64,000 nucleotides of DNA from Deltaproteobacteria bacterium (GCA_022601195.1 JAHZIX010000006.1:16629-80628); one strand, 5' to 3'; shown: positions 13,492 to 47,478, numbered from the stretch's first letter. Made by a program: numbers and translations. The notes: a model not told the origin generated them from the letters alone.

Positions 13492-15381
13492 TCAAAGGAC
13501 CCCGAAACGTCCCAAGCGGTGGATGGCTTCCACAAAACCCGCGGCGTTGTGCAAATGCCCGCTCCAGATCTCCGGCACCCAGCTAAAGTCTTTGTGGGAG
13601 AGGAGCTCCATCAAGTCATCCCATTCCACGACGCCCTCACCGATCTGCAACCCTTCGCCATCGATTCCGCTGGCATCGGCGACGTGCAGATGACGCACAT
13701 GGGGCAGACACAGGTCGACGAAATCCTGCAGCTTGCGGTGATAGAAGTTGCAATAGAGCTGGGCGTGGGAGATATCCAGAGTCATCCCCAGGCCTAGCTC
13801 CTGGCAGAACTCCACCAATTCCTCCGGTCGGATGAAGACGTTCTGGACCCATTGCCCTCCCAGGTACCAAGGCCGGGGAGGAAGATTTTCCGGCAGCAGA
13901 ATGGTGCCCTTCGCATCGAGTCGGCGAAAGGCCTCCACGGCTCGACCGAGGAGCAGGTCGTGGCGCTCGATGGGCTCGTCCATGCTCATGCCGCCGACAT
14001 GGATGACCACGCCCACGGGACCGGTGAAATGAGCTTGCATGGCAGCAGCCTTGTCGATGGTGCGCTGCATCAGAGTGATGGCTTGTTCACGGATCTCGTC
14101 ATCGAAGGAACAAAGGTCCAGGAGTCGGCTGTCGGAAAACTCGGGAGCATGAATGAACAGCTGCTGCGGGTGAGGCGAGGGGGGAGCTTCGAAAGGGTGA
14201 TCCACATCCGCTTCGCTGAAATGAAGCTCCACTAATTTCGGCTTCTTCTCCAGAATCTCCTGGAGATCGTGGAAGCGGGCCTTGAGTCCCCAGGTACGGA
14301 CCAGCTTCGAGGGTTCCAGGACGCGATCCGTGCCGGTCGACAAGTCCCCCTCGGTGAAATATTCGTCCTCTTCGATATTGCGATCCAAACGAGTGCCGAG
14401 GAGCTCTTGCATGCGCTGGGGGGAGAGCCCTTTGCCGGGTCCCTTGACTCGCACCATTGCTCGCTCGACGACCGTGCCCGTTGCCAAGTCTCGAGACGCG
14501 ACCAGGCTCTTGCGCAGCACCTGGCGATTGAGCATCTCCATGGTGGAAAGGTGTTTGACTTGGTCCCCTAGAGCAATTTCTCCATGGCGAATATCGCGCA
14601 CCAACTTCTGGATCCCTGCCGGCTCCAGACTCGCTGGGTGGTCCGGTCCAGGGAGGGTGCGGTCCAGGGTGATGTGTTTTTCGATGATCACGGAGCCCAA
14701 GGCCAAGGCCAGCATGGGGACGGCAATGCCCCGTTCGTGGCTGCTGTAACCCACCGGCACGTCCAACTCCTTGAGTCGCTCCAGGTAGCGCAAGTTGAGG
14801 CTCTCGAAGGGGGCCGGGTAGGTGCTGACGCAGTGGAGCAAGGCGAAGGAGGCGCCGAGATTCTTGAGGTGGCTAACGGTTCTCTCGATCTCCTCCGGAG
14901 TCGCCATGCCCGTCGAGAGAATCAGGGGCTTGCCCGTAGCGGTCAATTTTTCCAGCAAGGGCAAATTGACCAGATCCGCAGAGGCCACTTTGTAGATGCT
15001 CACTCCGAGCTCTTCGAGAAACTCCAGGCTCGGGGCGTCCCAGGGAGTGCACATGAAGCGGATTCCCTTTTCGTCGCAGCGCGCCTTGATCTGGTGGAAG
15101 CCGTCGTCGGTGAGCTCCTGCTGTTGGAGGATCGGTAGAAGGTATTGAAAAGCCCACTCGGCAGAGTTGGGATCGTTGAGCAGCTTGGCCGGGTACAGGC
15201 TCTTGACGTTCCGTTTCTGAAATTTGACCGCGTCGGCACCGGCTTCCGCAGCGACATCGACCAGCTTTAGGGCCATGTCCAGGCTACCGTTATGGTTCAC
15301 GCCGGCCTCGGCGATGATGAAGCAGGGCTCGCCCGTTCCGATACGGCGATCTTCCAGTTGCAAATAAGGTGTCTCAGGCAT
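13492..15381 (-). CDS. NeuB-family ulosonic-acid synthase (PEP-condensing, with SAF domain) fused to a C-terminal xylose-isomerase-like TIM-barrel (AP_endonuc_2) domain
   Basis: The N-terminal CFIIAEAGVNHNGSLDMALKLVDVAAEAGADAVKFQ is the classic NeuB/PseI/LegI motif. The SAF region lies around SLVASRDLATGTVVERAMVRVKG. Residues ~350-629 carry LHVADASGIDGEGLQIGEGVVEWDDLMELL, typical of sugar-phosphate isomerase/epimerase TIM barrels. Confidence 0.8.
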   Translation of the reverse strand: MPETPYLQLEDRRIGTGEPCFIIAEAGVNHNGSLDMALKLVDVAAEAGADAVKFQKRNVKSLYPAKLLNDPNSAEWAFQYLLPILQQQELTDDGFHQIKARCDEKGIRFMCTPWDAPSLEFLEELGVSIYKVASADLVNLPLLEKLTATGKPLILSTGMATPEEIERTVSHLKNLGASFALLHCVSTYPAPFESLNLRYLERLKELDVPVGYSSHERGIAVPMLALALGSVIIEKHITLDRTLPGPDHPASLEPAGIQKLVRDIRHGEIALGDQVKHLSTMEMLNRQVLRKSLVASRDLATGTVVERAMVRVKGPGKGLSPQRMQELLGTRLDRNIEEDEYFTEGDLSTGTDRVLEPSKLVRTWGLKARFHDLQEILEKKPKLVELHFSEADVDHPFEAPPSPHPQQLFIHAPEFSDSRLLDLCSFDDEIREQAITLMQRTIDKAAAMQAHFTGPVGVVIHVGGMSMDEPIERHDLLLGRAVEAFRRLDAKGTILLPENLPPRPWYLGGQWVQNVFIRPEELVEFCQELGLGMTLDISHAQLYCNFYHRKLQDFVDLCLPHVRHLHVADASGIDGEGLQIGEGVVEWDDLMELLSHKDFSWVPEIWSGHLHNAAGFVEAIHRLGRFGVL

Positions 15382-15616: not shown

Positions 15617-16315
15617 TCAGGACTTGACCGCGCGGCGCAACTGAAAGAGCTGCTCCATGCGCGGAAGATCTTCGGGCTCGTCGATCTGGAACGAATCAAG
15701 GGGGTCCATCCGGTGAACGGCGATTCTACCACCTAGACGGTTGCCATGGCGACGCAGCACCCAGGGCTTGAAGAGATAGATCGAACCGTTTTCTAGTAGA
15801 TCTTCTCCCAGATCCTGGCGGCGTTGACGCCTCTCGAAGTCGTAGCTAACGGAGCTCAGGCCCTGGGCATTCAGGCGCCATACGAATCCGTGAACCGGGC
15901 AAGCGGAAAACAAGCTGTCTGCCCCTTCTCGGTGCAGGGTTTCGATGGCCCGGGCTATGTCTTCCGGTTGGCGCAGAGGGGATGTGGCTTGGAGGAAGAG
16001 GACTAGGTCTGGCACGTATCCCTCCTCCTGTTCCAGGTGATCCAATGCATGGACCAGAGCCGACTCGGAGCTGGCTTCGTCGCCACTGATGTCTACCGGG
16101 CGGTGGACGACTTCAGCACCGTACTCGCTGGCCACTCCGGCGATGACCTGGTCATCCGTGGAGACGACCACCCGGTCCACGGCGGAAGCTTGTCGAGCTT
16201 GCTCGATGCTATGGGCGACCAGAGGTTTTCCCGCTACCAGGTGGACGTTTTTTCCAGGTATTCCTTTGGAGCCCCCCCGGGCAGGGATCAGGGCGAGGAT
16301 GGAAGGTGCGCTCAA
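15617..16315 (-). CDS. CMP-ulosonic acid synthetase (acylneuraminate/KDO cytidylyltransferase family)
   Basis: ALIPARGGSKGIPGKN N-terminal motif, 232 aa. It is separated from the synthase gene by an unusual 235-bp gap. Confidence 0.85.
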   Translation of the reverse strand: MSAPSILALIPARGGSKGIPGKNVHLVAGKPLVAHSIEQARQASAVDRVVVSTDDQVIAGVASEYGAEVVHRPVDISGDEASSESALVHALDHLEQEEGYVPDLVLFLQATSPLRQPEDIARAIETLHREGADSLFSACPVHGFVWRLNAQGLSSVSYDFERRQRRQDLGEDLLENGSIYLFKPWVLRRHGNRLGGRIAVHRMDPLDSFQIDEPEDLPRMEQLFQLRRAVKS

Positions 16316-18105
16316 GGGGTCGCTCCTTTGTTCGGTTGATGGGATGGCTGCGGACTCTGGGGTGGCTTCGGTTCCTGGAGCGGCGAAGTTGCCGGCGTGG
16401 TGGAACCTCTTGGAAGCAATAGACCATCTGGAAGCGACAGGTCTTCTGGAAAGGACAGGTCATTTGGTAGCGAAAGGGCGAACAGCAGTAGGTGCTCGGA
16501 TCGAAGGATCTCGGTGGCAAAGCTCGGTGGGCTGGAGAAATCCTGCTGATGCTCCGAATCTACCGCCAGGTAACCGAGAGACCCGGGAAAGACTCTAGGT
16601 AGCTCCTCTCTCACTCTCTCTACCAGAGGCCAGTTGGTGACCCCTCGCACAACGTGCCGCTCCGCGTAATAGACGGGAATCATATTGGTTTGAGGAGACA
16701 ACACCACGGCGCCCTGAGGGATGGCCTGGCGGATTTCTTGGGCGTAGTCCAAGAGAGGGTGGGAGATCTCGCGGGGGCCGGAGGCGTTTACCCTTCCCTT
16801 GGCAACCAGGGGGAAAAGCAGGGTTGCTGGAAGAACGCCCAGGAGAGTCCAGCGGGCTGCCCTGCGTAGGGCAGGGGACGGGGAGACATCGCAGTGGGCT
16901 AGAGCGCTGGCTACTGCCACTCCGACGCTGCCGGCAAGAAACGGAGCGCCGATATACATCTCGTATTGGTGGTTATAGGCGTGGTTCTTCATCAAGAGGA
17001 ACCAAGCGACCCACATAGTGGCCAGTCCACCGAGAGCGTAACCTGCCTCGATGTTTGGTCGACGGCGGTGTAGCCAGCCAGCTATCACTGCCCATCCTGC
17101 CGCCGTAACCACGAGCTGTCCGTTGGCCCAGATTCGCTCCGCGAAGGTGAGAACAACCTGGGCTAGGGAAGGTTGTAGATAGCTGCCGTAGCTGTGGTGG
17201 TTGACCAGGGTATGCACCTGAAAAGCCTGCTCTGGGGAGTACTCGAGGCCGAGGCGAAAGGCGACGGTGTGCCAAAGGTCCTCCAACAGCCCCGGCGACT
17301 GCCATGCGTAGAGCCCCATGACCAGGAAGACGGTGACTCCGGCGGTGAGGCAGTAGCCAGCTGCCAAGACCAGGTCGAATCGCCGTCGCCGAAACAGCGC
17401 CAGGCCCAGCAGGCCCCCTGTGGCGAGGGCTGGTTCCCAGGAGGTTCCCACGGCGGCTGCCATGGAGGTGATTCCGAGCCAAGGCCAGGGGCTTTTCCAC
17501 TGGTTTTGTTTCGTCTGGTTTTGTTTCGTCTGGGTTCGTTTCGTCTGGGCCCGTTTCGTCGCTTCGACAAAGCCGAGCAAAGCGAGAAGGGTAAAGGCCA
17601 GGGCCAGATGGAGATGCATCACCATTTCTCCCTTGATGGCCACGATAGGCAAGCAAAGGAAGGTGAAGGCTCCTACCAGAGCAGCGCGTTGGCTCAGGCA
17701 GGCACGCAGCAGCCAACCGACAAGGGCAGCGTTTATGAGCAAAAGGAAGGTGGCGAAGCCACGGGCGGCCATGGGGGACTCCCCAAACACTGCAAAAACC
17801 CAGCTCAAGACAATGGGGAAAAGGGGGGGCCAATGAAGATAGGCATCCGGTTCCAGGCCCAATGGTGAGTGGTTCTGGATGGGTAGACCGCCCAGCCCGA
17901 ATACTCCGTGCTCCTGATATGCGTGGGCTATGGTCGCGAAGTGGGCCGACACCCAACCGTTGGTGACCAGGGGTTGAGAATAGCGAAGGCCGTGGCTGAT
18001 CAGGGTCAACAGGATCGCCAGAGCCAACCAGGCGAGCAGGATAGGTTCCCTGGTGGCGGCAGGGTTCCTGGCTTCCTCGGCCTCGGGCTGTCGGTGGGCT
18101 TCCAT
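16312..18105 (-). CDS. GT-C-fold polytopic membrane glycosyltransferase (ArnT/PMT-like, polyprenyl-P-sugar dependent)
   Basis: 597 aa, many TM helices, large hydrophilic C-terminal domain. An internal five-residue repeat TKRAQ/TKRTQ/TKQNQ/TKQNQ is encoded by a 15-bp tandem DNA repeat. The start overlaps the UbiA gene by 1 nt. Confidence 0.55.
   Translation of the reverse strand: MEAHRQPEAEEARNPAATREPILLAWLALAILLTLISHGLRYSQPLVTNGWVSAHFATIAHAYQEHGVFGLGGLPIQNHSPLGLEPDAYLHWPPLFPIVLSWVFAVFGESPMAARGFATFLLLINAALVGWLLRACLSQRAALVGAFTFLCLPIVAIKGEMVMHLHLALAFTLLALLGFVEATKRAQTKRTQTKQNQTKQNQWKSPWPWLGITSMAAAVGTSWEPALATGGLLGLALFRRRRFDLVLAAGYCLTAGVTVFLVMGLYAWQSPGLLEDLWHTVAFRLGLEYSPEQAFQVHTLVNHHSYGSYLQPSLAQVVLTFAERIWANGQLVVTAAGWAVIAGWLHRRRPNIEAGYALGGLATMWVAWFLLMKNHAYNHQYEMYIGAPFLAGSVGVAVASALAHCDVSPSPALRRAARWTLLGVLPATLLFPLVAKGRVNASGPREISHPLLDYAQEIRQAIPQGAVVLSPQTNMIPVYYAERHVVRGVTNWPLVERVREELPRVFPGSLGYLAVDSEHQQDFSSPPSFATEILRSEHLLLFALSLPNDLSFPEDLSLPDGLLLPRGSTTPATSPLQEPKPPQSPQPSHQPNKGATP
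17501..17560. repeat. 15-bp tandem repeat x4 (tggttttgtttcgtc; two perfect plus two diverged copies) inside GT-C coding sequence
   Basis: Read directly: tggttttgtttcgtc tggttttgtttcgtc tgggttcgtttcgtc tgggcccgtttcgtc. In frame this encodes TKxxQ pentapeptide repeats. Confidence 0.8.
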
Positions 18106-19100
18106 TACATGCCCGGAACGGTTGGTTCCAGGAGGCGATGCACCCAGGGGATATCGAAGTAGAGCAGCAGGAGGATCACTGCAGCGCAGCCGAGGATGGC
18201 GAACATCAGGTGGGGTTCTTTGTACAGTCGCTCCGGAGCTTGGGCGGCACTGTTGTTCTTGAAAGCTACTGAGAGGTATAAGGCCATCACCAAGGCAACA
18301 AAGGGAAAAGAGAGAATCAGCTCCAGGCGGTACCTCATGATGAAAGCGCCTAGGAAGAGCATGGCTGCCGAGCTATAGAACATCACTGAGATCAACAGCT
18401 TGTCCAGTGTGTAGACGCCGAAGGAGCGCCGGTAGCCGGTGGTCTGCGCCGTACTGCCCAACTGCCTCAGCTCGGCGTAGCGTTTGATGGCCATGAAGTA
18501 CGCCCCCACCATCCAATAGCTAAGCAATAGGGAGCCTGGGGGAGCTCCCAAGGGAGTGGCTATATACCAACCGGCGAGCATGCGCAGGGGGTTGTTGACC
18601 GCTTCGGACAGGGCGTCCAAGTAGGCGACTTCCTTGGTTCGAATGGGGCGGACGTTGTAGACCACCCCCATGAGCCAGAGGGCTCCGAGAGTCCAGGCCA
18701 ACCCCGGGGAGACAGAGGCTCCCAAAGCGATTCCGGCTGCGCCGAAGACGATCCATTGGAGGTACGCGAGAGGGATGTGTACCTGGCCACTTGGAACCGG
18801 CCGGTGGCGCTTAGTGGGGTGGAGGCGATCAAAAGGGGCGTCGAGGACCTCGTTCAAAGTGTAGTTGCTGGAGGCCACCAAACAGGTGGCCAGGAGCCCC
18901 ACGGCAATCGCTAGCCAGAGCTGGTTGCCGGCGGCTTGGGGAGCCAGGGTCAAGGCGACGACGATGCCCGGCAGCACGAAGACATTCTTTACCCAATGGT
19001 CGAGGCGCAGGATGGCTAGATGGCCCGCCAGAGAAGGACGGCTCGCTTCGGTGGGCCGGGAGGAGCTGCTGGGGGCAGGTGGTTGAGGGGGCTCGCTCAA
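18105..19100 (-). CDS. UbiA-superfamily prenyltransferase, decaprenyl-phosphate phosphoribosyltransferase (DPPR)-like
   Basis: NEVLDAPFDRLHPTKRHRPVPSGQV contains the NxxxDxxxD motif plus the R..RP.PSG segment of UbiA enzymes. A second acidic motif lies at YLDALSE. It has ~8 TM helices and 331 aa. Confidence 0.75.
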   Translation of the reverse strand: MSEPPQPPAPSSSSRPTEASRPSLAGHLAILRLDHWVKNVFVLPGIVVALTLAPQAAGNQLWLAIAVGLLATCLVASSNYTLNEVLDAPFDRLHPTKRHRPVPSGQVHIPLAYLQWIVFGAAGIALGASVSPGLAWTLGALWLMGVVYNVRPIRTKEVAYLDALSEAVNNPLRMLAGWYIATPLGAPPGSLLLSYWMVGAYFMAIKRYAELRQLGSTAQTTGYRRSFGVYTLDKLLISVMFYSSAAMLFLGAFIMRYRLELILSFPFVALVMALYLSVAFKNNSAAQAPERLYKEPHLMFAILGCAAVILLLLYFDIPWVHRLLEPTVPGM

Positions 19101-20008
19101 GGCTGCCTCGCGTAGAGTACGACCATCGAATCTCTAGGGTTTACAGGGATCACACGTTCATAAAGCCAAGCTAGTGGCGCGATGCGTTTGGCCATCCGGT
19201 TCACGAAGCCAACGGGGAGGTAGCGCTCCAGGCGTTCCGCCACGTATCCCACGGGGAAGAACCACCGAGCCCGGCGAAAGCCAATGGGGTGAAGGCCCGC
19301 TGCCTGCGCCGCACGGTCGAGGGATCGACGGTCGAAGTAGCCTACATGGGCGAGACGAAAGTGCCACCAACGATGCCGCAGTATCTTGGCTGCAAGGCTG
19401 CCCACATCCGGCGTTACGACCATCAATCGGCCGTTCGATTCCATGCCCTCGGCACAAGCGCGCAGCAAGGCCACCGGATCGGGGACATGCTCGATGACGT
19501 CGATCAGACAAACCGCGTCGAAGCGGTGTCCGCTCAACTTTGGGTGGGGATAGGTTCCTTGCAGAATTCCCACGCTGTGGAGTCGTTGGGCCGTTGCCAC
19601 GAGGGCTTGGCTTGGCTCGACCCCCTCGGTCTTCCAGCCTCGAAGATTGGCCTCGGCGATCAGGGCTCCAGCTCCAGCTCCGATGTCCAAGAGGGTCTTG
19701 GCTTCGGGAGCGGCCTTGCGCAGCACCTTCAGCAACCAGCTCATTTGCAAGCGCCGGCTTTCCTGACCTTCTTCATACCCGGAGTCTTCGAGTTCTTCAT
19801 AGAGACTCAGCAGCTTCGCCAATTCGCCGCCTTCAGCAAAGATAAAGCCGCAATCCGGACAACGGACAAGGGATAGGGTCAGGCCGTAGCGAGCATCGGT
19901 GATTTTGAGATCATCGGGTACCAGCTCCCGGTCGAGATTTCTCGGCTTCCAGGGCTGGCTCTGGAGCGAGCCGCAGATCCAGCAAGCGTTTTCTATGAGT
20001 CTTTCCAT
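19097..20008 (-). CDS. Class I SAM methyltransferase with N-terminal Zn-ribbon
   Basis: CWICGS...CPDCG forms a Cys4 ribbon. MTase motif I is LLDIGAGAGALIAEANLRG. Motif III/post is VCLIDVIEHVPDP...GRLMVVTPD. Confidence 0.75.
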   Translation of the reverse strand: MERLIENACWICGSLQSQPWKPRNLDRELVPDDLKITDARYGLTLSLVRCPDCGFIFAEGGELAKLLSLYEELEDSGYEEGQESRRLQMSWLLKVLRKAAPEAKTLLDIGAGAGALIAEANLRGWKTEGVEPSQALVATAQRLHSVGILQGTYPHPKLSGHRFDAVCLIDVIEHVPDPVALLRACAEGMESNGRLMVVTPDVGSLAAKILRHRWWHFRLAHVGYFDRRSLDRAAQAAGLHPIGFRRARWFFPVGYVAERLERYLPVGFVNRMAKRIAPLAWLYERVIPVNPRDSMVVLYARQP

Positions 20009-20056
20009 GGTACCCGCGGATCATGGCACATTTGCCTTCTGCTACACTCGCCCGCC

Positions 20057-21466
20057 ATGAAACTCAGTGTGTTGATTCCCGTGTACAACGAGCGCTATCT
20101 CGTGGCAGAGCTGGTGCGCCGAGTCTTGGTGGCACCGCTTCCAGAAGGGGTCGGACGGGAGATTATCATCGTCGATGATGGCTCCCGGGACGGTACTGTG
20201 GAAGTGGTCGCGAAGATGGAGAGCGAGCACCCTGACCAGATTCGTTTCATTCAGCACGAAAAGAACCAAGGCAAGGGTGCCGCGGTTCGGACTGCGATTC
20301 GCGAGGCCAGCGGCGATTTCGCCATCTTTCAGGACGCCGACTTGGAATACGATCCCCGCGACTACGAGCGACTCCTGGAGCCTCTTTTGTCCGGTCAGGC
20401 GGATGTGGTCTACGGCTCCCGCTTCCTTCCTTCTCAACGTCGCCGTGTTCTCTATTTTTGGCACAGCCTGGGCAACCGCTTCCTCACCCTTCTGTCCAAT
20501 ATGTTTACCAATCTCAATCTCACCGACATGGAAACCTGCTACAAGGTTTTTCGCACCGAGGTCCTAAAGACGATCCCCATTCGCAGTAACGATTTCGGCC
20601 TCGAGCCGGAGATCACCGCCAAGGTTTCCAAGCGGGGGCTGCGTCTCTACGAAGTTCCCATTAGCTATGACGGGCGAACCTATCTGGAAGGCAAGAAGAT
20701 CGGTTGGAGGGATGGCTTACGGGCCCTCTACGTGATCCTCAAGTATCACTTCATCGACGATCTCTACGATGAGAAAACCGGCCATGCGATCCTCTCGGAC
20801 CTGTCTCGGGCGCACCGGTTCAATCGTTGGATGGCAGACATCATCCGCCCCGAGTTGGGCCACTCAGTGCTCGAAGTGGGAGCTGGAATCGGCAATCTCA
20901 CCTCCCAGCTACTGCCTCGGGAACGGTACATCGCTAGCGATTTCGACGATCTTCACCTCGATGTCCTGCAAAATCTGGCCATGAATCGGGTCGGCCTCGA
21001 CGTCCATCGTCTCGATGCCTCAGAGGCCGAGGGCTATGCAGGCTTTCGGGGCGATATCGACTCTATAGTCTGCCTCAATGTTCTCGAGCACATTCCCCAA
21101 GCGGCGGCCTCGTTGAAGAATTTTTACGATTCCTTGGCCCCAGGGGGCCGAGTGATCATCTTGGTGCCTCAGGGGAAATGGCTCTTCTGTCCTTTGGACG
21201 AGGCTTTGGAGCACGTCAAGCGCTATTCGCCCCAGGAGCTGCGAGAGGAACTGGAGGCAGCGGGTTTCGAGGTGGAAAAGGTCCGTCATTTCAACCGCAT
21301 CGGAGTGATCGGCTGGTTCTTGAACGGCAAATTGCTGCGTCGGGTTCAGCTGGCCAAGATTCAGCTGAAGATTTACGACTCCTTGGTGTGGCTCTGGCGA
21401 GGCATCGATCGGTTCTTACCGTGGCATGGACTCTCGGTCATCGCCGTGGGCCGCAAGCCGGAATAG
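20057..21466 (+). CDS. GT2 polyprenyl-phosphate sugar synthase (ArnC/DPM1/GtrB-like) fused to C-terminal class I SAM methyltransferase domain
   Basis: The N-terminal MKLSVLIPVYNE...IIVDDGSRDGT...IFQDADLEYDP...VVYGSRF matches the DPM1/ArnC family. C-terminal residues ~260-469 carry SVLEVGAGIGNLTSQLL...SIVCLNVLEHIPQ...GGRVIILVPQ (MTase motifs I and III). Confidence 0.8.
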   Translation: MKLSVLIPVYNERYLVAELVRRVLVAPLPEGVGREIIIVDDGSRDGTVEVVAKMESEHPDQIRFIQHEKNQGKGAAVRTAIREASGDFAIFQDADLEYDPRDYERLLEPLLSGQADVVYGSRFLPSQRRRVLYFWHSLGNRFLTLLSNMFTNLNLTDMETCYKVFRTEVLKTIPIRSNDFGLEPEITAKVSKRGLRLYEVPISYDGRTYLEGKKIGWRDGLRALYVILKYHFIDDLYDEKTGHAILSDLSRAHRFNRWMADIIRPELGHSVLEVGAGIGNLTSQLLPRERYIASDFDDLHLDVLQNLAMNRVGLDVHRLDASEAEGYAGFRGDIDSIVCLNVLEHIPQAAASLKNFYDSLAPGGRVIILVPQGKWLFCPLDEALEHVKRYSPQELREELEAAGFEVEKVRHFNRIGVIGWFLNGKLLRRVQLAKIQLKIYDSLVWLWRGIDRFLPWHGLSVIAVGRKPE

Positions 21467-22846
21467 TCGCCGTCTCGAAGTTTCCAGGCCGGCGGCGGCG
21501 TAGAGACAGAGGATCGGCGTAATGGGAACGCGAAATCGGTGGTAGGACTCCGGGCCGGCAGAAATGAGTACCAGATAAGCGGCGACTCCCCAGGCACAAA
21601 GGTCGAAGACTTCGACCCGGCGGTGGCGAAGGGATGTCCACCACCAGCGGGCTCCACCCCAGTAGAGGACCGCCAAAAAGGCCAGCAGTACCAGAGCGAC
21701 CAGAAAGCTCATCGATCGTTCTAGAACCCACCGCCTCAGGTAGTCCCTCGGCTTCAAGCGAAACAGATCTCCCAGCGGTCCGGAGCTGGGAATGGGAATG
21801 CCGAGCAACCGCATCACGGTGTGTTCACCGGTTCCCCCGAGGGTTGCCGCCATGCCCACCAGCTGCATTTTCGCGACTTCTGCCGGATGCTGAGCCAAAA
21901 TGGCTAGACCTTCTTCCTTCCACCGTTCGGTGAGCTCTTCTTCAGTGAAGTCACGGGTTTCCGGATGAAGCTCCCGGTACCAACCCTTTCCCAGCTGATG
22001 GCGGGCTTCCTCGAGGCTGATGCCATCTCGCAAGGAGATGACTTTGGCGCCTCGGAAGAACAACAGATCCAAGCCGACGATTTGGCTGATATCGCCGCTA
22101 CCGGTGAGGCGATAGTTGCGCAGTTGCCAGCCTCCCAACAGTCCCACTACGGGAATAAGGAAGGCCAAGAGAGCCGCGCAGGTCTTTTGAGGCGAGAGAT
22201 GGCGCCGCCACGCTGCCACCAGGATCCAGCCGGCGACAGCGGGCGCCAAGTAGTAGCTGATCGGCCTCACCAAGGTCGCCACGGCCAGCAACAGGCCGAT
22301 GCCGCCGGCCCACAGAACCCCCCGATTTCCCTTGGCAAAACGGAGGGCGCAAAACAACATGGCAACCATGAGGAATGCGAAGAGGGTCTCGGTGAGTAGA
22401 AGGAGCGAGTGGGAAAAAGAGGCTGCATCGAGGGTGAGAAGGCCCGCGGCGGCGATTCCCACCGGTGTGGAGAAACGCTCTTGGGTGAGGCGAAAAAGAA
22501 GCAGTATCGTTGCCAGGCTAAGGAGGATCTGCCAGGCGATACCCGCTGCTGGTCTTTCTCCTGCCAAAGCATAGGCGGGAGCCAGAAAAATCGGGTAGCC
22601 GGGTGTGCGACGAGTCTCCGGGACGTTGGGGCGGTCGGCGGACACGGAGAACCTTCCCGCTTGCAACAGAGAGCGGGTGGTCTCGTGATAGGCGACCGAG
22701 TCGGTGTAGACGAAACGGGCCGGGTCCTGGGTCACCACGACCCCCCACACAAGAACCTTGAGAACTGCCGAAATGGCCAGCAGCCCCAACAGGCATTTGG
22801 GCAAGCCTCCCCTGGGCAGTTTCACTGGGTTACCCCTCCTCGGCAT
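21416..22846 (-). CDS. GT-C-fold glycosyltransferase, ArnT (GT83)/PMT-like
   Basis: The first periplasmic loop FVYTDSVAYHETTRSLLQ aligns with the ArnT TDETRYAEISREML motif (T-D-x-x-x-Y-x-E-x-x-R-x-x-L), and there are more than 10 TM helices. The probable start is at Met34 (MPRRGNPVKL); the ORF extends to 22945. Confidence 0.7.
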   Translation of the reverse strand: MPRRGNPVKLPRGGLPKCLLGLLAISAVLKVLVWGVVVTQDPARFVYTDSVAYHETTRSLLQAGRFSVSADRPNVPETRRTPGYPIFLAPAYALAGERPAAGIAWQILLSLATILLLFRLTQERFSTPVGIAAAGLLTLDAASFSHSLLLLTETLFAFLMVAMLFCALRFAKGNRGVLWAGGIGLLLAVATLVRPISYYLAPAVAGWILVAAWRRHLSPQKTCAALLAFLIPVVGLLGGWQLRNYRLTGSGDISQIVGLDLLFFRGAKVISLRDGISLEEARHQLGKGWYRELHPETRDFTEEELTERWKEEGLAILAQHPAEVAKMQLVGMAATLGGTGEHTVMRLLGIPIPSSGPLGDLFRLKPRDYLRRWVLERSMSFLVALVLLAFLAVLYWGGARWWWTSLRHRRVEVFDLCAWGVAAYLVLISAGPESYHRFRVPITPILCLYAAAGLETSRRRLFRLAAHGDDRESMPR

Positions 22847-23970
22847 TTCCCCTCTTCGGCGGCGAGGCGCAAGACTTTTTCGACTCTTCCGCCGGCTACC
22901 TGCCAATTGAGATCCGACTCGTAGCGTCTGCGGCTGTCGATACACAACCGGTGATAGCGCTGCGGTTGGGCCATCAAGCGAGCGATGGCTTCGGAAAAAG
23001 CTTCCGCCATGGCCCCGGCGGGGAGAACCACGCCGGAGGTACCGTTCTTCACGGAAGTAGCGATGCCTCCGACATCTCGGGTCACGACCGGGAGGCCAAA
23101 GGCTGCAGCCTCGGCGGTGACGATAGGAGAGGGGTCGAAGCGAGCTGGGTGAAGCAACAGATGCGACCTGCGGTAGAGCTCTAGGTAGGTCTCGAGCTCT
23201 TGAGATCGGCTCTTTCGAAACGGGCCCACAAAGCGAATATGCTCCTCATCGGATCCCGAAAGCCCACAGATCGTCAACCGAGTGGGGTTGCCGGAGCGGT
23301 TCAGCTGTCGAGTCGTCTCCATGGCGATATCGATACCTTTGCGGTGGAAGTTCCGGCCCACGGTGAGGAGCTCCAAAGGCTCTGCCAGGGACCGCGGAGG
23401 GGGAGCCCCATCGGGAACCTTGTCTTGGGGCAACGCCGAGGGATTGGGAAAGGTATGAATACGGCGCGCATCGAAGCCGTAGTCGCGAGCCAAGCCTTCG
23501 GCGGACCAACCACTATGGGTGATCAAGTGGGAGCAGCGGGCAAAGGCGCGATGTTCCTGCCAAATATTCAGTTTCATGGCCAAATCTCCGAACTCCTCAT
23601 ATCCACTTTGGTAGCCACGGAAACTGGTGTCCAAGCGGAAGACGCAAGGGGTAGAGCCGCGGTAAAAAACCAACGATGGCTGAAACAGAGTGAACACGAC
23701 ATCTGCTTTGGCTGCCTCTTCGGCCCGGTTCAGCCCCGCTGATGCCCGCCGGGTCAGGCTGTGGGGGAACTTGGCGTATCGCTTCTTGATCCCTCGCTGG
23801 TAAAGGCGTTTCAAGACTCTCTCCCAGGCGCTGGGTGGGTGTCTAAAGGGCCCGACGAGACTCATGTCATGGCCTCGTTCCGCCAGAGAACGATAGAAGT
23901 TGAAGTCGGCGCCGCTCGCAGCGTCCGGGTCTCTGGGGTCGTGGCGATAGGCGGAATAGAGGATTCTCAT
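22822..23970 (-). CDS. Glycosyltransferase family 4
   Basis: 382 aa. HLLLHPARFDPSPIVTAEAAAFGLPVVTRDVGGIATSV is a GT4 C-domain motif. Confidence 0.8.
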   Translation of the reverse strand: MRILYSAYRHDPRDPDAASGADFNFYRSLAERGHDMSLVGPFRHPPSAWERVLKRLYQRGIKKRYAKFPHSLTRRASAGLNRAEEAAKADVVFTLFQPSLVFYRGSTPCVFRLDTSFRGYQSGYEEFGDLAMKLNIWQEHRAFARCSHLITHSGWSAEGLARDYGFDARRIHTFPNPSALPQDKVPDGAPPPRSLAEPLELLTVGRNFHRKGIDIAMETTRQLNRSGNPTRLTICGLSGSDEEHIRFVGPFRKSRSQELETYLELYRRSHLLLHPARFDPSPIVTAEAAAFGLPVVTRDVGGIATSVKNGTSGVVLPAGAMAEAFSEAIARLMAQPQRYHRLCIDSRRRYESDLNWQVAGGRVEKVLRLAAEEGKCRGGVTQ

Positions 23971-26971: not shown

Positions 26972-28261
26972 TCAATCACCTCGTCCGTGAGCTTGGTGCC
27001 ACTGATGATGCACCAAAAAGCTGCCATGGCGTTGGCCGATGGGGGCCTGTCCACTGCCGAAGGCATTGCCTTCCACCAGATTGAATTGGAAGGCCTCTTT
27101 GACATTGTCGGAGAACTCTCCATTCACGGAGCAACCTAAAGAGACGGTGTAGACGCCAGCCGCTAGGGGAATCGAAGGCATTTGGCAGTGGATTTTTCCT
27201 TCGGGCGGCAACGTTTCGAATCGTCCGACATCAGTGAAGTGAGTCGATAGAGTAAAGAGTAGATTGCCGATGTGGTCAGCGACGTGTATTTGGGCCAAGA
27301 CTTTGATCAGAGGTTTGCCGTCGGTGGAGCGGTAGCCGATCTCGAAGACACCCGAATCGCCGGAGCGTAGGGAACCGCTTTGGGTACCGTCCGGGTCGGT
27401 CAGTCGAATGCTTTGGAAGCGCATCGGGCCCGCCCCACGGCGATCGGTCCGATCTCCTAGAGGTATTGCTAGCTGAGTGGAGACCTTGGCCATGTATTGG
27501 GTGATGACTTCGTCGGTAGGACCGTAGGCCTCCAAACGGCCCCTTTCCAGCATTAAGGTGGTCGGGCAAAGGTGGGAAATAGCACCTAGATTGTGACTGA
27601 CCAAGAGCACGGTGCGACCTTGTCCAGCCACCTCTCCCATTTTACCCAGGCATTTTTTTTGAAAGGCGGCATCTCCCACTGCCAGCACTTCATCTACCAG
27701 TAGAATCTCCGGTTCCAAATGAGCAGCTACGGCAAATGCTAGCCGTAGGTACATGCCGCTCGAGTAGTGCTTGACCGGAGTGTCGATGAACTTTTCGAGC
27801 TCCGCGAAGTCAACGATCTCCTCGAACTTCTTCAGAATCTCGCCCCGGCCCATGCCGAGGATCGCCCCATTCAGAAAGATATTCTCTCTACCGGTGAGCT
27901 CCGGGTGAAAGCCGGTGCCGACCTCGAGCAGGGAGCCGACTCGGCCTCGGATTCGCGCTAGCCCGGCGGAAGGCTCGGTGATACGTGAGAGAATTTTGAG
28001 CAGTGTGCTCTTGCCTGCTCCATTGCGGCCGATAATACCCACCACCGCCCCTTCCGGAATGGCGAAAGAGATTTCCTGGAGGGCCCAGAAACTTTCGTGG
28101 AGGTCCGCTGCTCCGGTCGCATGACCCTTGAGTAAGTTTCCTACCCGCCGAAACGGGCTCGCTGCTAGCTCGACGAGCGTTTCTCGCAAAGTGCGGTACC
28201 GCTCCTGCTTGCCAATGAAGTAGCGCTTGCCGAGATCTTCCGCGAGGATGGCGTCATTCAT
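26972..28261 (-). CDS. wzt: ABC transporter ATP-binding protein Wzt with C-terminal carbohydrate-binding (Wzt_C-like) domain
   Basis: GRNGAGKSTLLKIL is Walker A, YSSGMYLRLAFAVA is the signature motif and LLVDEVLAVGD is Walker B. A ~165-aa C-terminal extension (FQSIRLTDPDGTQSGSLRSGDSGVFEIGYRS...) follows. The start MNDAIL lies 2 nt after the wzm stop; the ORF track extends spuriously to 28585. Confidence 0.9.
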   Translation of the reverse strand: MNDAILAEDLGKRYFIGKQERYRTLRETLVELAASPFRRVGNLLKGHATGAADLHESFWALQEISFAIPEGAVVGIIGRNGAGKSTLLKILSRITEPSAGLARIRGRVGSLLEVGTGFHPELTGRENIFLNGAILGMGRGEILKKFEEIVDFAELEKFIDTPVKHYSSGMYLRLAFAVAAHLEPEILLVDEVLAVGDAAFQKKCLGKMGEVAGQGRTVLLVSHNLGAISHLCPTTLMLERGRLEAYGPTDEVITQYMAKVSTQLAIPLGDRTDRRGAGPMRFQSIRLTDPDGTQSGSLRSGDSGVFEIGYRSTDGKPLIKVLAQIHVADHIGNLLFTLSTHFTDVGRFETLPPEGKIHCQMPSIPLAAGVYTVSLGCSVNGEFSDNVKEAFQFNLVEGNAFGSGQAPIGQRHGSFLVHHQWHQAHGRGD

Positions 28262-28263
28262 GA

Positions 28264-29160
28264 TTAGACGACATCCGCAAAAGTCTTTTCCATGCGCCGA
28301 AAGTACAGCAAGCCGGTCACCAGGAGCACCAGGGTTGCGATCGAAGAGGTCAGCACCAGACTGAATATCGGGGCGTCGAGTCCGAGCAGAGCCCATCGGA
28401 ATCCCTCGACGACACCGACCATGGGGTTCAATGCATAGATCCACACGGGGATGCCCATCTCCTCGAGCTTGGGCGCGACCTCTGCGGTGGAGTAGATCAC
28501 TGGCGTGACGAAAAGGAGGAGCTGGGTAAAGAAAGGGATGACATAGCGGATATCTCGGAATTGGACGTTCAAGGCAGAAAGCCAAAGGCCTGCCCCGAGT
28601 GCGCTACCGAAGGCCAGGAGAGCCAGGAACGGCAACCAAACAACCATCGCCGTGGGGCGGGTGCCGTAGTAAGCCATCATGGGGAAGAGAATCAGAAACG
28701 CTAGAACGAAATCAACGGCGGGAGCAAGGGCTGAAGCGATCGGGATGGCGAGACGAGGAAAATAAACTTTCTTGATCAGGTTTTGGCTTCCCACCAGGCT
28801 ATTGGACGATTGGGTCAAGCCGAGGGAAAAGAAAGTCCAGGGGAGTAGTCCCGCATAGGAAAAGATGGGGTAGGCGATTCCCTCTGGCCCCAACTGGGCC
28901 ACCCGCCCGAAGAAGATGGTGAACACGACCATGGTCAATAAAGGCTGGAGAATCGCCCAGGAGGCACCAAGGACCGTCTGCTTGTATCGAACCTTGATGT
29001 CCCGCCACACCAAGAAGTAGAGCAGGGCTCGGTAGTCCCACAACTCGCCCAACCGCAAGGAAACCCAGCCGGAAGAGGGCTGGATGAGGGTCTCGGCAAT
29101 GGCCGAGATACGCGGTTGATTATCCATGAGCTGCGGCTTACTTTCGGGAGGCAAAATCAA
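28264..29160 (-). CDS. wzm: ABC-2 type polysaccharide export permease Wzm
   Basis: LWDYRALLYFLVWRDIKVRYKQTVLGASWAILQPLLTMVVF is the canonical Wzm/KpsM/TagG N-terminus. Six TM helices. Confidence 0.85.
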   Translation of the reverse strand: MILPPESKPQLMDNQPRISAIAETLIQPSSGWVSLRLGELWDYRALLYFLVWRDIKVRYKQTVLGASWAILQPLLTMVVFTIFFGRVAQLGPEGIAYPIFSYAGLLPWTFFSLGLTQSSNSLVGSQNLIKKVYFPRLAIPIASALAPAVDFVLAFLILFPMMAYYGTRPTAMVVWLPFLALLAFGSALGAGLWLSALNVQFRDIRYVIPFFTQLLLFVTPVIYSTAEVAPKLEEMGIPVWIYALNPMVGVVEGFRWALLGLDAPIFSLVLTSSIATLVLLVTGLLYFRRMEKTFADVV

Positions 29161-32002: not shown

Positions 32003-32725
32003 CTAGGGTATGGGTTGATTGTTCACGACCCTCGTAGGGTTCGTCGTGGTCAACAATGTGGCTACTTCTGGGCTCCAGCGGTCCGCTACATGGTCGTAGG
32101 CTCGCAATAGCCCTGGGGGGCGACGCTCAATTCCGTGGCAGTCGCTGGCGATAAAGTGAGCGAGGGATGTCTCGATGAGCCGCCGGGCCGATTCCCGTGG
32201 ACGACGCCCGAATTCTCCCGTGAGGCTCATCGCAGTAATTTGTAGTCGTGCGCCCAGGTGAACCAGGTTTTCCAATCGGGGTAAATCCCCAGCTAGCCAT
32301 GGCAGCAGCTCCGGGTGCGCAAGAATTGGCCTCCAGCCGCCAACTACCAACTCATGGACGATATGTTCCGGCTCCGGCCCTGTTCCGGACCGCGAAAATT
32401 CGATCAGCAGATATTGGGTGTCTGCGATGGGAAGAAAACCGCCGCCGGGCCAAGATTCGGCTTCTGACAACCATTCCGAATCGACTCGGATCTCTCCGCC
32501 AGGCAACAGAGTGGGACTCTCCCCAATCTCCTCTTGAAGGCGGTTGCGGAGCTCCGTCAAGCTCTGCCGGTCTCCATTCCACCAGCGAGGGTGACGCTGG
32601 TGGGGAGTCGCAACCATAGCGGTACAGCCCTGTTCACCAGCGAAACGAACCATGGCGACGGCTTCTTCGAAGCTATCGGCGCCATCGTCGATCCCGGGGA
32701 GGATGTGGCAATGAAGATCGATCAT
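32003..32725 (-). CDS. PHP-family protein-tyrosine phosphatase (CpsB/YwqE type; Wzb functional analogue)
   Basis: MIDLHCHILPGIDDGA N-terminus and ...IASDCHG... metal-binding residues. 240 aa. Confidence 0.9.
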   Translation of the reverse strand: MIDLHCHILPGIDDGADSFEEAVAMVRFAGEQGCTAMVATPHQRHPRWWNGDRQSLTELRNRLQEEIGESPTLLPGGEIRVDSEWLSEAESWPGGGFLPIADTQYLLIEFSRSGTGPEPEHIVHELVVGGWRPILAHPELLPWLAGDLPRLENLVHLGARLQITAMSLTGEFGRRPRESARRLIETSLAHFIASDCHGIERRPPGLLRAYDHVADRWSPEVATLLTTTNPTRVVNNQPIP

Positions 32726-35016: not shown

Positions 35017-35858
35017 AAGAAAGACTCCTTGACCACCACTACGTCACCTTCTCGAAGGCGGAAATCTTCTTCCTTGCCAGCGACGATGCGTTTGTAGTCG
35101 ACGCCGATCTCCTGGCCGGTAGAGTCGTGGGTCTGGCCGGCTCGTTTGACGACGATTTTTGGAGAGGCCCGATCCGTCAACCCGCCAGCTCGAGCGATGG
35201 CTGCGAGAAGGGAGACGCGCTCACTGCTCTTGAAGGTCAGGGCACCTGGTCGTTCAACGGCTCCGAGGCAATACACCGTCACGTCGACCGCAGCGGAGAC
35301 GTTGATGAGGTCGTTGGCGAAGATGGGAATATTGACTTTGGGGTCGGCTCGGACCATGAGGTCGTCTACAGCGATCTCCACTTGGCTCGAGAGCCCGTTC
35401 TCCGCTTGTCGCCGGACATAGATCACGGTGCCATGATTTTCGGCAAGGCCTCCCGCGGCGGTGAGAGCCTCCAGTAGAGTCCAGCGACCGGAAAAGCCTA
35501 GATCTCCCGGTTTAGTGACCGCTCCGATCACCGAAATGGGCTTGGAGCGATATTCACGCAACTGTACGGACACGGAGGCGCGCTGGAAAAAACGTTCTTC
35601 CAACCTCTCCTTCAGTCGTGCTTCCAACTGCGCCGCTGTGAGGCCGAGCACGGAAACATCGCCAACCGGTGGGAAGTTGATGTCTCCGTCGGTAGAAACG
35701 CGGTGCTCACTGTTGAGGTTGGGCGCCTCGAAGACCCGAATCTCGACGAGATCCTTGGGGCCGATTCGATAATTGTCGACATTCTGAGCCGTGGCGTCCG
35801 GGAGGGCCGCTGCTAGAAAGAAGACACAAGAAACCCAGTACAACAGTTTTCTCATCAT
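35013..35858 (-). CDS. wza: Outer-membrane polysaccharide export protein, Wza-like OPX (short form lacking C-terminal OM helix)
   Basis: Signal peptide. Poly_export motif NYRIGPKDLVEIRVFEAPNLNSEHRVSTDGDINFPPVGDVSVLGLTAAQLE. SLBB repeats. At 281 aa it is about 100 aa shorter than E. coli Wza. Confidence 0.85.
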   Translation of the reverse strand: MMRKLLYWVSCVFFLAAALPDATAQNVDNYRIGPKDLVEIRVFEAPNLNSEHRVSTDGDINFPPVGDVSVLGLTAAQLEARLKERLEERFFQRASVSVQLREYRSKPISVIGAVTKPGDLGFSGRWTLLEALTAAGGLAENHGTVIYVRRQAENGLSSQVEIAVDDLMVRADPKVNIPIFANDLINVSAAVDVTVYCLGAVERPGALTFKSSERVSLLAAIARAGGLTDRASPKIVVKRAGQTHDSTGQEIGVDYKRIVAGKEEDFRLREGDVVVVKESFF

Positions 35859-47159: not shown

Positions 47160-47478
47160 GTATCCAGGATTATGTACCAGGAGCCTGTAGTGAAAGTCTC
47201 TTGTTTGCGAGAGCGAGCGATCTTTCGGTGAATCCAGAAGGCAAACCGGAGCCAAACCTGGGGTTCGTCGAGGACCTCGCTGCGCCGGGTCGCGGAGTCG
47301 CTGGAAGAGACCCGCTCGCCGCCAGAGAGAGTCGCACTACAGGCTCCTTGGCCAGGGTTTCCTGCTCGATCGTTCGCCGATGTTCGGCTCCAGAATACTC
47401 CCCTCCGCTACGGGACCTGGGCGGTGAGGGGAATTCCGTTGAGGCTCGCAGACTCTATGTGTAGATTCGGCTATACTC

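What the first reader, a model, noticed from the sequence alone, without database searches (positions are those of the whole stretch)
16312..22945. Polyprenyl-phosphate-sugar module with a DPPR-like UbiA enzyme and two GT-C transferases but no epimerase pair
Seen in sequence: a UbiA-superfamily enzyme (18105-19100; NEVLDAPFDRLHPTKRHRPVPSG) flanked by an ArnC/DPM1-like GT2 (20057-21466) and two ArnT/PMT-like GT-C enzymes (16312-18105 and 21416-22846; the latter has the T-D-x-x-x-Y-x-E-x-x-R-x-x-L loop).

Established: DPPR (Rv3806c) makes decaprenyl-P-ribose-5-P, the precursor of the arabinofuranose donor used by GT-C arabinosyltransferases. Gtr/Arn systems use a GT2 plus a GT-C for periplasmic glycosylation.

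Here no DprE1/DprE2-type epimerase pair is visible in the window. The donor could therefore be a polyprenyl-P-ribofuranose or another pentose, used for periplasmic side-branching of the polymer, or of lipid A or proteins. This is unusual outside Corynebacteriales.
Basis: partly seen in the sequence, partly recalled or inferred. Interest (0 to 1): 0.75.

Follow-up and report, generated by a model that had tools for sequence, protein, structure and literature searches.

The report
Lipid-linked pentose module with dedicated methyltransferase
Inside a large surface-polysaccharide gene cluster of an uncultured deltaproteobacterium sits a known kind of system that decorates glycans outside the cell membrane with a five-carbon sugar carried on a lipid, but here it is welded to a methyltransferase that has not been described in such systems.

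Summary
The window contains a UbiA-family enzyme (18105-19100), two GT-C transferases (16312-18105; 21416-22846) and a DPMS/ArnC-like GT2 (20057-21466). No DprE1/DprE2-type gene was found in the window or in 10 kb beyond its left edge.

The UbiA keeps 9 of the 11 PRPP-contacting residues of M. tuberculosis Rv3806c. It scores about twice as high against phosphoribosyltransferase models as against any prenyltransferase model.

Kelly et al. (PNAS 2024) described it as the "three-component" pentofuranose system. It is not rare either: at least 567 loci of this UbiA subfamily occur in species-representative genomes of many phyla.

- A SAM methyltransferase gene (19097-20008) overlaps the UbiA start, giving a coupled MT→UbiA→GT-C1 cassette.
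- The GT2 is fused to a second methyltransferase and has no membrane helices.

This methyltransferase family is a near-obligate partner of such UbiA genes (30 of 33 informative loci). It also occurs fused to UbiA, to the HAD phosphatase and to a GT-C.

My best reading, which is inference, is that it methylates the lipid-linked pentose before export. No dedicated phosphatase or flippase gene is present in the window. I classify this as a new variant of a known kind.

The parts
19097..20008 (-). MTz: a 303-aa cytoplasmic class I SAM methyltransferase with an N-terminal CxxC...CxxC zinc-ribbon. It is the first gene of the cassette, and its stop overlaps the UbiA start (TTGA).
   Evidence: Pfam Methyltransf_23, E 1e-23. 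No TM segment. Orthologues are 43-58% identical next to UbiA genes in other loci. Junction sequence.
18105..19100 (-). PPPRS-like UbiA-family enzyme, a candidate polyprenyl-phosphate 5-phosphoribosyltransferase.
   Evidence: NCBIfam: HAD-UbiA family PRK08238 98 bits and DPPR models 87 bits, against 43 bits or less for any prenyltransferase model. PDB: Rv3806c 8j8j, E 1.6e-14. R32, K38, Y80, N83, D87, K97, R100, Y148 and R154 correspond to the PRPP-binding residues of Rv3806c listed in PMC10994848 and are invariant in the family.
16312..18105 (-). GT-C1: an ArnT-like GT-C fold glycosyltransferase. Its start overlaps the UbiA stop (TAATG), and its stop overlaps the start of the downstream cytidylyltransferase gene.
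   Evidence: AF2 model pLDDT 89.5. Foldseek top hit ArnT 5f15 (TM 0.56/0.61), with all top 38 hits GT-C. 86 homologues, most with PF13231. The conserved loop P86-D87-x-Y89..W92-P93-P94 precedes TM2. Junction.
20057..21466 (+). GT2-MT fusion. The N-terminal domain is a polyprenyl-phosphate glycosyltransferase-type GT-A (DPMS/ArnC/GtrB-like) with a juxtamembrane helix at 217-232. The C-terminal domain is a class I SAM methyltransferase. There are no TM helices.
   Evidence: Pfam Glycos_transf_2 (4-172) and Methyltransf_23 (265-408). PDB sequence hits: DPMS 1e-20, ArnC 2e-17. AF2 pLDDT 87; Foldseek ranks 1-17 are ArnC, DPMS or GtrB only. 0 TM segments.
21416..22846 (-). GT-C2: a second PMT_2/ArnT-like GT-C transferase, convergent with the GT2-MT gene and overlapping its 3' end by 51 nt. 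The ORF extends to a GTG at 22945.
   Evidence: PF13231, 46 bits against a cut-off of 26. The motif YTDSVAYHETTRSLL follows the first TM helix. At least 7 TM segments.
26972..29160 (-). Context. Wzt (an ABC ATPase with a C-terminal carbohydrate-binding domain) and Wzm. These are the likely exporter of the polymer that the GT-C enzymes modify after export; that role is inferred.
   Evidence: Pfam ABC_tran plus Wzt_C, and ABC2_membrane. This parallels the ABC-transporter-dependent O antigens modified in PMC11127046.

Best explanation
This is a post-export pentofuranosylation module of the type defined in Citrobacter youngae, embedded in a large polysaccharide cluster.

Proposed steps, from most to least secure:
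1. On the cytoplasmic face, the UbiA-like enzyme transfers ribose-5-phosphate from PRPP to a polyprenyl phosphate. This rests on homology and conserved PRPP-binding residues.
2. The 5-phosphate is removed by a phosphatase that is not encoded here.
3. The translationally coupled methyltransferase MTz O-methylates the lipid-linked ribofuranose while it is still cytoplasmic. This is inference: SAM is only available in the cytoplasm, whereas the GT-C acts outside.
4. An unidentified flippase exports the donor.
5. GT-C1 transfers the (methyl)pentofuranose to a glycan. That glycan is probably the polymer exported by the adjacent Wzm/Wzt transporter.

With no epimerase in view, the sugar is most simply ribofuranose.

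The GT2-MT fusion and GT-C2 may form a second, Gtr-like branch: a polyprenyl-P-hexose that is methylated and then transferred. That pairing is weak.
For: PPPRS assignment:
- The DPPR and HAD-UbiA models score about 2-fold above any prenyltransferase model.
- Rv3806c is the top PDB hit.
- 9 of 11 PRPP-contacting residues are kept and are invariant in 24 family members.
- A HAD hydrolase lies directly upstream in 41 of 82 related loci.
- Cultured rhizobia carry UbiA-HAD-GtrA (Rhizobium johnstonii) and UbiA-GtrA-HAD-MT-GT-C (Mesorhizobium huakuii) operons.

GT-C1:
- GT-C fold.
- Overlapping stop/start with the UbiA gene.
- GT-C1-type proteins sit next to MT-UbiA in L004, L050, L083, L086, L117 and L133.

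MTz:
- 30 of 33 loci with at least 1 kb on both sides have this UbiA adjacent or within 3 kb; 2 others have a DPMS-like GT2 instead.
- Among the best 150 cluster representatives there are 10 HAD-MT and 4 MT-UbiA fusions; Pfam confirmed four of the former and three of the latter, and found one GT-C-MT fusion.
- GT-C1-type transferases occur only in MT-containing loci (3 of 15 against 0 of 67, Fisher p = 0.005).

Context:
- The published precedent for the overall mechanism is PMC11127046.
Against: - No phosphatase (HAD or PAP2) and no small flippase (GtrA or SMR) is encoded in the window or in 10 kb to its left.
- All NCBIfam scores are far below the equivalog cut-offs, so this is a distinct subfamily of untested activity.
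- Two ribose/5-phosphate contacts of Rv3806c (Q135, Y157) are not conserved.
- The methyltransferase substrate is entirely inferred. No O-methyl-pentofuranose-containing glycan was linked to such genes in the literature searched.
- Fusions called in metagenomes can be frameshift artefacts, because the genes normally overlap.
- The acceptor glycan is unknown.
Confidence: 0.6

Rival explanations
1. A plain three-component ribofuranosylation system. The methyltransferase is one more polymer O-methyltransferase of the cluster, acting on the undecaprenyl-PP-linked glycan rather than on the lipid-linked pentose donor.
For: The window carries at least eight methyltransferase genes or domains. It also has a Wzt with a terminal-residue-binding domain, which is typical of methyl-capped ABC-transporter-dependent glycans (PMC11127046).
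Against: MTz tracks the UbiA gene, not polysaccharide clusters. It sits in the self-contained five-gene operon of Mesorhizobium huakuii, which has no other glycan genes. It lies next to the UbiA in 30 of 33 informative loci. It occurs fused to UbiA, HAD or GT-C.
Confidence: 0.15
2. An arabinofuranose (or xylofuranose) pathway as in mycobacteria or P. aeruginosa pilin glycosylation, with the epimerase(s), phosphatase and flippase encoded elsewhere in the genome.
For: Only about 74 kb of a 424-kb contig of a MAG was seen. The phosphatase and flippase must in any case be supplied in trans.
Against: No DprE1-type (FAD_binding_4) gene recurs near this UbiA subfamily in 82 loci. Only an SDR appears, in 5 loci about 4 kb away. 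In characterised and predicted systems the epimerases sit with the module (PMC11127046).
Confidence: 0.12
3. The UbiA is a true prenyltransferase and MTz is a UbiG-like O-methyltransferase. Together they would make a methylated prenylated small molecule (quinone-like or another lipid), and the GT-C genes would be unrelated neighbours.
For: UbiG is the best NCBIfam and among the best PDB matches of MTz. UbiA plus UbiG is the classical quinone pair. Half of the JGI annotations call the UbiA homologues 4-hydroxybenzoate polyprenyltransferase.
Against: The UbiG match covers only the generic SAM-binding core and scores 47 bits against a cut-off of 103. The UbiA scores 21 bits on the 4-hydroxybenzoate prenyltransferase model against 87-98 on the phosphoribosyltransferase-type models. 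It keeps residues that PMC10994848 reports as not conserved in prenyltransferases. Its recurrent partners are HAD, GtrA and GT-C.
Confidence: 0.05
4. The two GT-C enzymes are lipid A or protein modifiers (ArnT- or PMT-like) that do not use the UbiA product.
For: ArnT is the best structural match of GT-C1. Both relate to Pfam PMT_2. Some GT-C1 homologues are solitary in other genomes.
Against: Identity to ArnT is 14-15%, and there is no sequence-level PDB or NCBIfam ArnT match. No arn genes are in the window. GT-C1 is translationally coupled to the UbiA and recurs in that position elsewhere.
Confidence: 0.08

Closest known systems
Citrobacter youngae O1/O2 three-component pentofuranose system: ORF15 (PPPRS-PRP), ORF14 (flippase), ORF12 (GT136 GT-C); PMC11127046
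   Same: A UbiA-type polyprenyl-P phosphoribosyl synthase and a GT-C sit inside an ABC-transporter-dependent glycan cluster. There is no DprE1/E2, so Ribf is the default sugar. The best NCBIfam match of the window UbiA is the HAD-UbiA family PRK08238, which has the same HAD-UbiA domain order as ORF15.
   Different: No fused or adjacent HAD phosphatase and no small flippase. A translationally coupled methyltransferase is present that is absent from the published systems. The motif is NE instead of ND. The homologues of GT-C1 carry PMT_2 (PF13231), the Pfam family annotated as ArnT-like/GT39 in source names, whereas GT136 was founded for lack of similarity to existing families; this was not tested directly. 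A second GT-C and a GT2-MT fusion lie alongside.
Mycobacterial decaprenyl-P-arabinose pathway: Rv3806c, Rv3807c, DprE1/DprE2, Emb/Aft GT-Cs
   Same: The first enzyme is homologous (E 1.6e-14 to 8j8j) and keeps most PRPP-binding residues. GT-C enzymes are the consumers.
   Different: No DprE1/DprE2 and no PAP2 phosphatase. Gram-negative lineage. The system presumably modifies rather than polymerises. A methyltransferase partner is present.
Gtr (GtrA/GtrB/Gtr*) and Arn (ArnC/ArnT) periplasmic modification systems
   Same: The GT2 domain at 20057-20750 matches DPMS, ArnC and GtrB best by sequence and by fold. GT-C2 is PMT_2/ArnT-like.
   Different: The GT2 has lost the C-terminal TM helices and carries a methyltransferase instead. 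There is no GtrA. In four homologues examined elsewhere the fusion has no recognisable GT-C neighbour.
Methylthioxylofuranose capping of M. tuberculosis LAM (Rv0539-Rv0541c), as summarised in PMC11127046
   Same: A chemically modified pentofuranose is delivered from a polyprenyl-P donor by a GT-C.
   Different: That donor derives from methylthioadenosine via a GT2-type synthase. It does not come from PRPP, and no SAM methyltransferase acts on the lipid-linked sugar.

Membership tests
Three-component pentofuranose modification system (Kelly et al. 2024) | UbiA-family PPPRS with the loop-II Asn/Asp motif and the PRPP-binding residues | tested here: met
   N83, D87, D91 and R32, K38, Y80, K97, R100, Y148, R154 are present and invariant in the family. 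The second residue of the motif is E84, not D.
Three-component pentofuranose modification system (Kelly et al. 2024) | A 5-phosphate phosphatase (HAD 'PRP' domain or a separate enzyme) encoded with the synthase | tested here: not met
   No HAD homologue in the window (best tblastn E 0.02). None in 10 kb beyond the left edge. One is present next to the UbiA in 41 of 82 related loci.
Three-component pentofuranose modification system (Kelly et al. 2024) | A small multi-TM flippase gene (ORF14/ArnE-like, or GtrA) | tested here: not met
   No 70-260-aa ORF with 3 or more hydrophobic segments anywhere in the window, and no GtrA or SMR homologue. Present in related loci L086 (GtrA), L122 (SMR/EamA-like) and L169 (GtrA).
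Three-component pentofuranose modification system (Kelly et al. 2024) | A GT-C fold transferase encoded with the synthase | tested here: met
   GT-C1 model against ArnT and other GT-C structures. Overlapping genes.
CAZy GT136 | Sequence similarity to C. youngae ORF12, its D31/E34/H106/R349 residues and its C-terminal CBM | not testable with these tools
GT-C1 homologues carry PF13231 and the model shows a small alpha/beta C-terminal domain, not an Ig-like CBM. This argues against membership but is not a test.
Mycobacterial-type DPA (arabinofuranose) pathway | DprE1 (FAD_binding_4/ALO) and DprE2 (SDR) epimerase pair | tested here: not met
   No such Pfam hit on any ORF of 150 aa or more in the window or in the 10-kb extension. 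The rest of the genome was not seen.
Polyprenyl-phosphate glycosyltransferases (DPMS/GtrB/ArnC type GT2) | GT-A catalytic domain plus juxtamembrane helix of this subfamily | tested here: met
   Best sequence hits are 5mlz, ArnC and GtrB. Foldseek ranks 1-17 are the same enzymes.
Polyprenyl-phosphate glycosyltransferases (DPMS/GtrB/ArnC type GT2) | C-terminal transmembrane helices anchoring the enzyme | tested here: not met
   0 predicted TM segments. The C-terminal half is a methyltransferase.
Aromatic/quinone UbiA prenyltransferases (UbiA, MenA) | Match to equivalog models of 4-hydroxybenzoate or DHNA prenyltransferases | tested here: not met
   TIGR01474 scores 21.5 bits against a cut-off of 275; no MenA hit.
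ArnT (lipid A aminoarabinose transferase) | Sequence-level orthology to ArnT and an accompanying arn operon | tested here: not met
   No PDB sequence hit for GT-C1. No NCBIfam ArnT hit for either GT-C. No arn genes in the window.

The most novel reading that the evidence does not exclude
MTz defines an undescribed step in bacterial glycan assembly: SAM-dependent O-methylation of a polyprenyl-phosphate-linked monosaccharide on the cytoplasmic face. GT-C1-type enzymes would then transfer a ready-methylated pentofuranose outside the membrane. The same logic would have evolved twice, with UbiA-type and GT2-type donor synthases, the latter fused here as GT2-MT. That would make methylated lipid-linked donors a widespread source of O-methyl sugars in envelopes of soil phyla such as Acidobacteriota, Gemmatimonadota, Myxococcota and Planctomycetota.
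Probability: 0.35. Interest if true: 0.65.

Novelty: new variant of a known kind. Interest (0 to 1): 0.5.

Why it matters
Extracytoplasmic glycosylation from polyprenyl-P donors is a major source of surface-antigen diversity. The pentofuranose branch was only defined in 2024.

If the coupled methyltransferase acts on the lipid-linked sugar, it adds a new kind of donor tailoring beside epimerisation. It would also explain how O-methyl sugars can be placed on glycans after export, where SAM is not available.

The family is abundant in poorly studied soil phyla. It also occurs in cultured Mesorhizobium huakuii as a self-contained five-gene operon, so the idea can be tested directly. If the methyltransferase only methylates the polymer, the locus is an ordinary member of a published system.

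Tried and rejected
- Quinone or lipid prenyltransferase reading of the UbiA: rejected on model scores, PRPP residues and neighbours.
- ArnT/lipid A reading of the GT-Cs: no sequence-level ArnT similarity.
- Search for a HAD, GtrA or SMR gene in the window by tblastn, and for any small multi-TM ORF: nothing.
- Walking 10 kb beyond the left edge of the window: more polysaccharide genes, but no phosphatase, flippase or epimerase.
- Conserved pairing of the GT2-MT fusion with a GT-C: not found. Four contexts were examined. Three are solitary, and one has an unrelated 546-aa neighbour.
- Pfam scan of recurrent neighbour clusters for a DprE1-type oxidase: none.
- Phage collection searched for a comparable system: one weak hit only.
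- Literature searches for methyltransferases in such systems, or for O-methyl-ribofuranose glycans: nothing relevant.
- My first greedy ORF callers were unreliable in high-GC DNA. I replaced them with clustering of all six-frame ORFs plus HMM searches.


Full report
**What is in the window**

The window comes from a 423,876-bp contig of a MAG labelled 'Deltaproteobacteria bacterium'.

From about 30 kb down to the left edge and 10 kb beyond it, almost every gene lies on the minus strand and belongs to surface-glycan synthesis:
- several GT4 and GT2 transferases;
- at least eight methyltransferase genes or domains;
- a NeuB-type synthase with a CMP-sugar cytidylyltransferase;
- a polysaccharide deacetylase;
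- Wzm and a Wzt with a C-terminal carbohydrate-binding domain;
- Wza/Wzc/CpsB;
- three Wzy_C-type proteins;
- two Bac_transf initiating transferases.

The finding lies in the middle of this cluster.

**Check of the observation**

- UbiA, 18105-19100: a UbiA-family protein (E 4e-23) with the quoted motif at residues 83-105.
- GT-C1, 16312-18105: it only grazes Pfam PMT_2. However, 86 homologues mostly carry PF13231. An AlphaFold2 model built on 51 of them (pLDDT 89.5, pTM 0.89) matches ArnT best, and its 38 best hits are all GT-C enzymes.
- GT-C2, 21416-22846: it passes the PMT_2 threshold and has the loop YTDSVAYHETTRSLL after its first helix.
- GT2, 20057-21466: it is DPMS/ArnC/GtrB-like by sequence and by predicted fold; Foldseek ranks 1-17 are only those enzymes.
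- Epimerases: no FAD_binding_4, SDR or NAD-epimerase protein exists among the ORFs of 150 aa or more.

- The 'GT2' is a fusion with a class I methyltransferase and has no TM helix.
- A 303-aa methyltransferase gene (19097-20008) precedes the UbiA.

The junctions show tight coupling:
- the methyltransferase stop and the UbiA start share TTGA;
- the UbiA stop and the GT-C1 start share TAATG;
- the GT-C1 stop overlaps the next gene by 4 nt.

**What the UbiA is**

NCBIfam ranks the models as follows:

| Model | Bits |
|---|---|
| HAD-UbiA family PRK08238 | 98 |
| Three DPPR models | 77-87 |
| Best prenyltransferase model | 43 |
| 4-hydroxybenzoate prenyltransferase | 21 |

All scores are far below the equivalog cut-offs, so this is a separate subfamily.

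The only strong PDB hit is Rv3806c (E 1.6e-14). The Rv3806c structure paper lists the PRPP contacts as R22, K28, Y70, N73, D77, K87, R90, Q135, Y138, K143 and Y157. It states that the phosphoribose-binding sites are not conserved in UbiA prenyltransferases (PMC10994848).

In the ungapped alignment, the window protein has R32, K38, Y80, N83, D87, K97, R100, Y148 and R154 at nine of these positions. All nine are invariant in 24 family members. Q135 and Y157 are replaced.

Genomic company agrees with this assignment. In 82 non-redundant loci of species-representative genomes, a HAD hydrolase sits directly upstream in 41, and a large protein with at least 8 TM segments lies within 3 kb in 58. Rhizobium johnstonii 3841 pRL10 has a UbiA-HAD-GtrA operon. 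I therefore assign it as a polyprenyl-phosphate phosphoribosyltransferase by homology. Activity is untested.

**Comparison with what is known**

Kelly et al. (PMC11127046) showed the following in C. youngae:
- A HAD-UbiA fusion makes polyprenyl-P-ribofuranose from PRPP.
- A small transporter is proposed to flip it.
- A GT-C (GT136) adds alpha-Ribf to an ABC-transporter-exported O antigen.
- Added epimerases give Xylf or Araf.
- Candidate systems occur widely.

The window lacks two of the published parts. It has no HAD or PAP2 phosphatase and no small flippase. Both are known to be partly dispensable or replaceable in the model systems, since ORF15 D18A retains some activity. Even so, their absence here is a real gap.

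**The new element: the methyltransferase**

MTz has four invariant Cys residues (CxxC...CxxC), intact SAM motifs and a conserved WWHFR.AHVGYF block.

Viewed from the UbiA side, 14-15 of 82 loci carry it.

Viewed from the MT side, a metagenome scan gave 491 relatives.
- Of 33 loci with at least 1 kb on both flanks, 25 have this UbiA adjacent on the same strand and 5 more have it within 3 kb.
- Two have a DPMS-like GT2 instead, and only one has neither.
- With stricter flanks, 21 of 23 have the UbiA. The commonest order is MT then UbiA without a HAD, as in the window.

Against 1.84 billion cluster representatives there are 176 close relatives. An HMM screen of the best 150 found 10 HAD-MT and 4 MT-UbiA fusions. 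Pfam confirmed four of the former and three of the latter, and also showed a GT-C-MT fusion.

GT-C1-type transferases were found only in MT-containing loci (3 of 15 against 0 of 67, p = 0.005). In cultured Mesorhizobium huakuii the five genes UbiA-GtrA-HAD-MT-GT-C1-homologue form a self-contained operon away from any polysaccharide cluster.

The published three-component paper mentions no methyltransferase in such systems. My literature searches found no later description.

**Inference on mechanism**

MTz is soluble and needs SAM, so it works in the cytoplasm. The GT-C works outside. If the methyl group ends up on the transferred pentose, it must be added at the lipid-linked donor stage.

The HAD-MT fusions suggest it acts right after dephosphorylation. 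The position (O-2, O-3 or O-5) cannot be told.

The parallel association of distant MTz relatives with DPMS-like GT2 genes supports 'methylation of a polyprenyl-P-monosaccharide' as the common theme. Examples are the overlapping GT2 then MT pair in L166 and the GT2-MT fusion in the window. This remains inference.

The GT2-MT fusion is itself a very conserved family (57-81% identity over its full length, mostly Planctomycetota). None of the four contexts examined has a recognisable GT-C neighbour. Its link to GT-C2 therefore rests on adjacency alone.

**Verdict**

This is a real, correctly located module of an already published kind, in a widespread subfamily. Its distinctive, apparently undescribed feature is a dedicated methyltransferase partner.

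Confidence by step:
- High for the PPPRS-plus-GT-C core.
- Moderate for GT-C1 using the UbiA product.
- Modest for donor methylation.

Noticed in passing
window 13492-15381 (-) and 15617-16315 (-): A NeuB-type nonulosonic acid synthase (NeuB plus SAF) is fused to a C-terminal xylose-isomerase-like TIM-barrel domain. A PseF/KdsB-like cytidylyltransferase follows it, and that gene's start overlaps the GT-C1 stop. The fusion partner is unusual for NeuB.
   Followed up: no
window 475-1980, 37204-38664, 40746-42170; 26972-29160; 32003-35858: One window holds three Wzy_C/O-antigen-ligase-like proteins, a Wzm/Wzt ABC exporter with a Wzt_C binding domain, and a Wza/Wzc/CpsB set. Two Bac_transf initiating transferases are also present (45759-47255 and beyond the left edge). 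Parts of two export pathways are therefore interleaved.
   Followed up: partly
window 47479-51967 (+): MTHFR and a full-length cobalamin-dependent methionine synthase sit next to a cluster carrying at least eight SAM methyltransferases. This may be local support of the methyl cycle.
   Followed up: no
window 59186-60478 and 60777-62015 (+): Two tandem paralogues have an N-terminal PilZ domain and a C-terminal Cds6_C NTF2-like domain. These are possible c-di-GMP effectors near the polysaccharide genes.
   Followed up: no
window 52030-54646 (+): An MBOAT acyltransferase followed by an AlgX/SGNH-like protein, which is an alginate-type O-acetylation pair. AlgX-like genes also recur next to the UbiA subfamily in other loci (L003, L013).
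   Followed up: partly
window 16312-18105, residues 184-202 of GT-C1: A low-complexity insert, KRAQTKRTQTKQNQTKQNQ, sits within a predicted helix of the AF2 model (residues 164-193 plus the following loop), and there is a Pro/Gln-rich disordered C-terminal tail (residues 555-597, pLDDT below 55). Whether homologues share them was not checked.
   Followed up: no
window 20009-20056: Only 48 bp separate the divergent start codons of MTz and the GT2-MT fusion. Promoters for both must overlap coding sequence or each other.
   Followed up: no
L013:4374-5969 and L087:6054-7763: An amine-oxidase/NAD_binding_8 flavoprotein (with a weak UDP-galactopyranose-mutase hit) recurs about 1 kb from the UbiA subfamily in 4 loci. 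It also sits next to a solitary GT-C1 homologue. It could be a sugar-tailoring redox enzyme unrelated to DprE1.
   Followed up: no
L122:7848-8852: A radical SAM/SPASM protein lies directly after MT-UbiA in a locus that also has a DPMS-like GT2 (53% identical to the window's GT2 domain) and an SMR/EamA-like 123-aa transporter.
   Followed up: no
L170-L172 and proteins P0208-P0326: The GT2-methyltransferase fusion is a strikingly conserved (57-81% identity), often solitary gene in Planctomycetota, Kiritimatiellota and relatives. That pattern suggests a housekeeping envelope function that is not characterised.
   Followed up: partly
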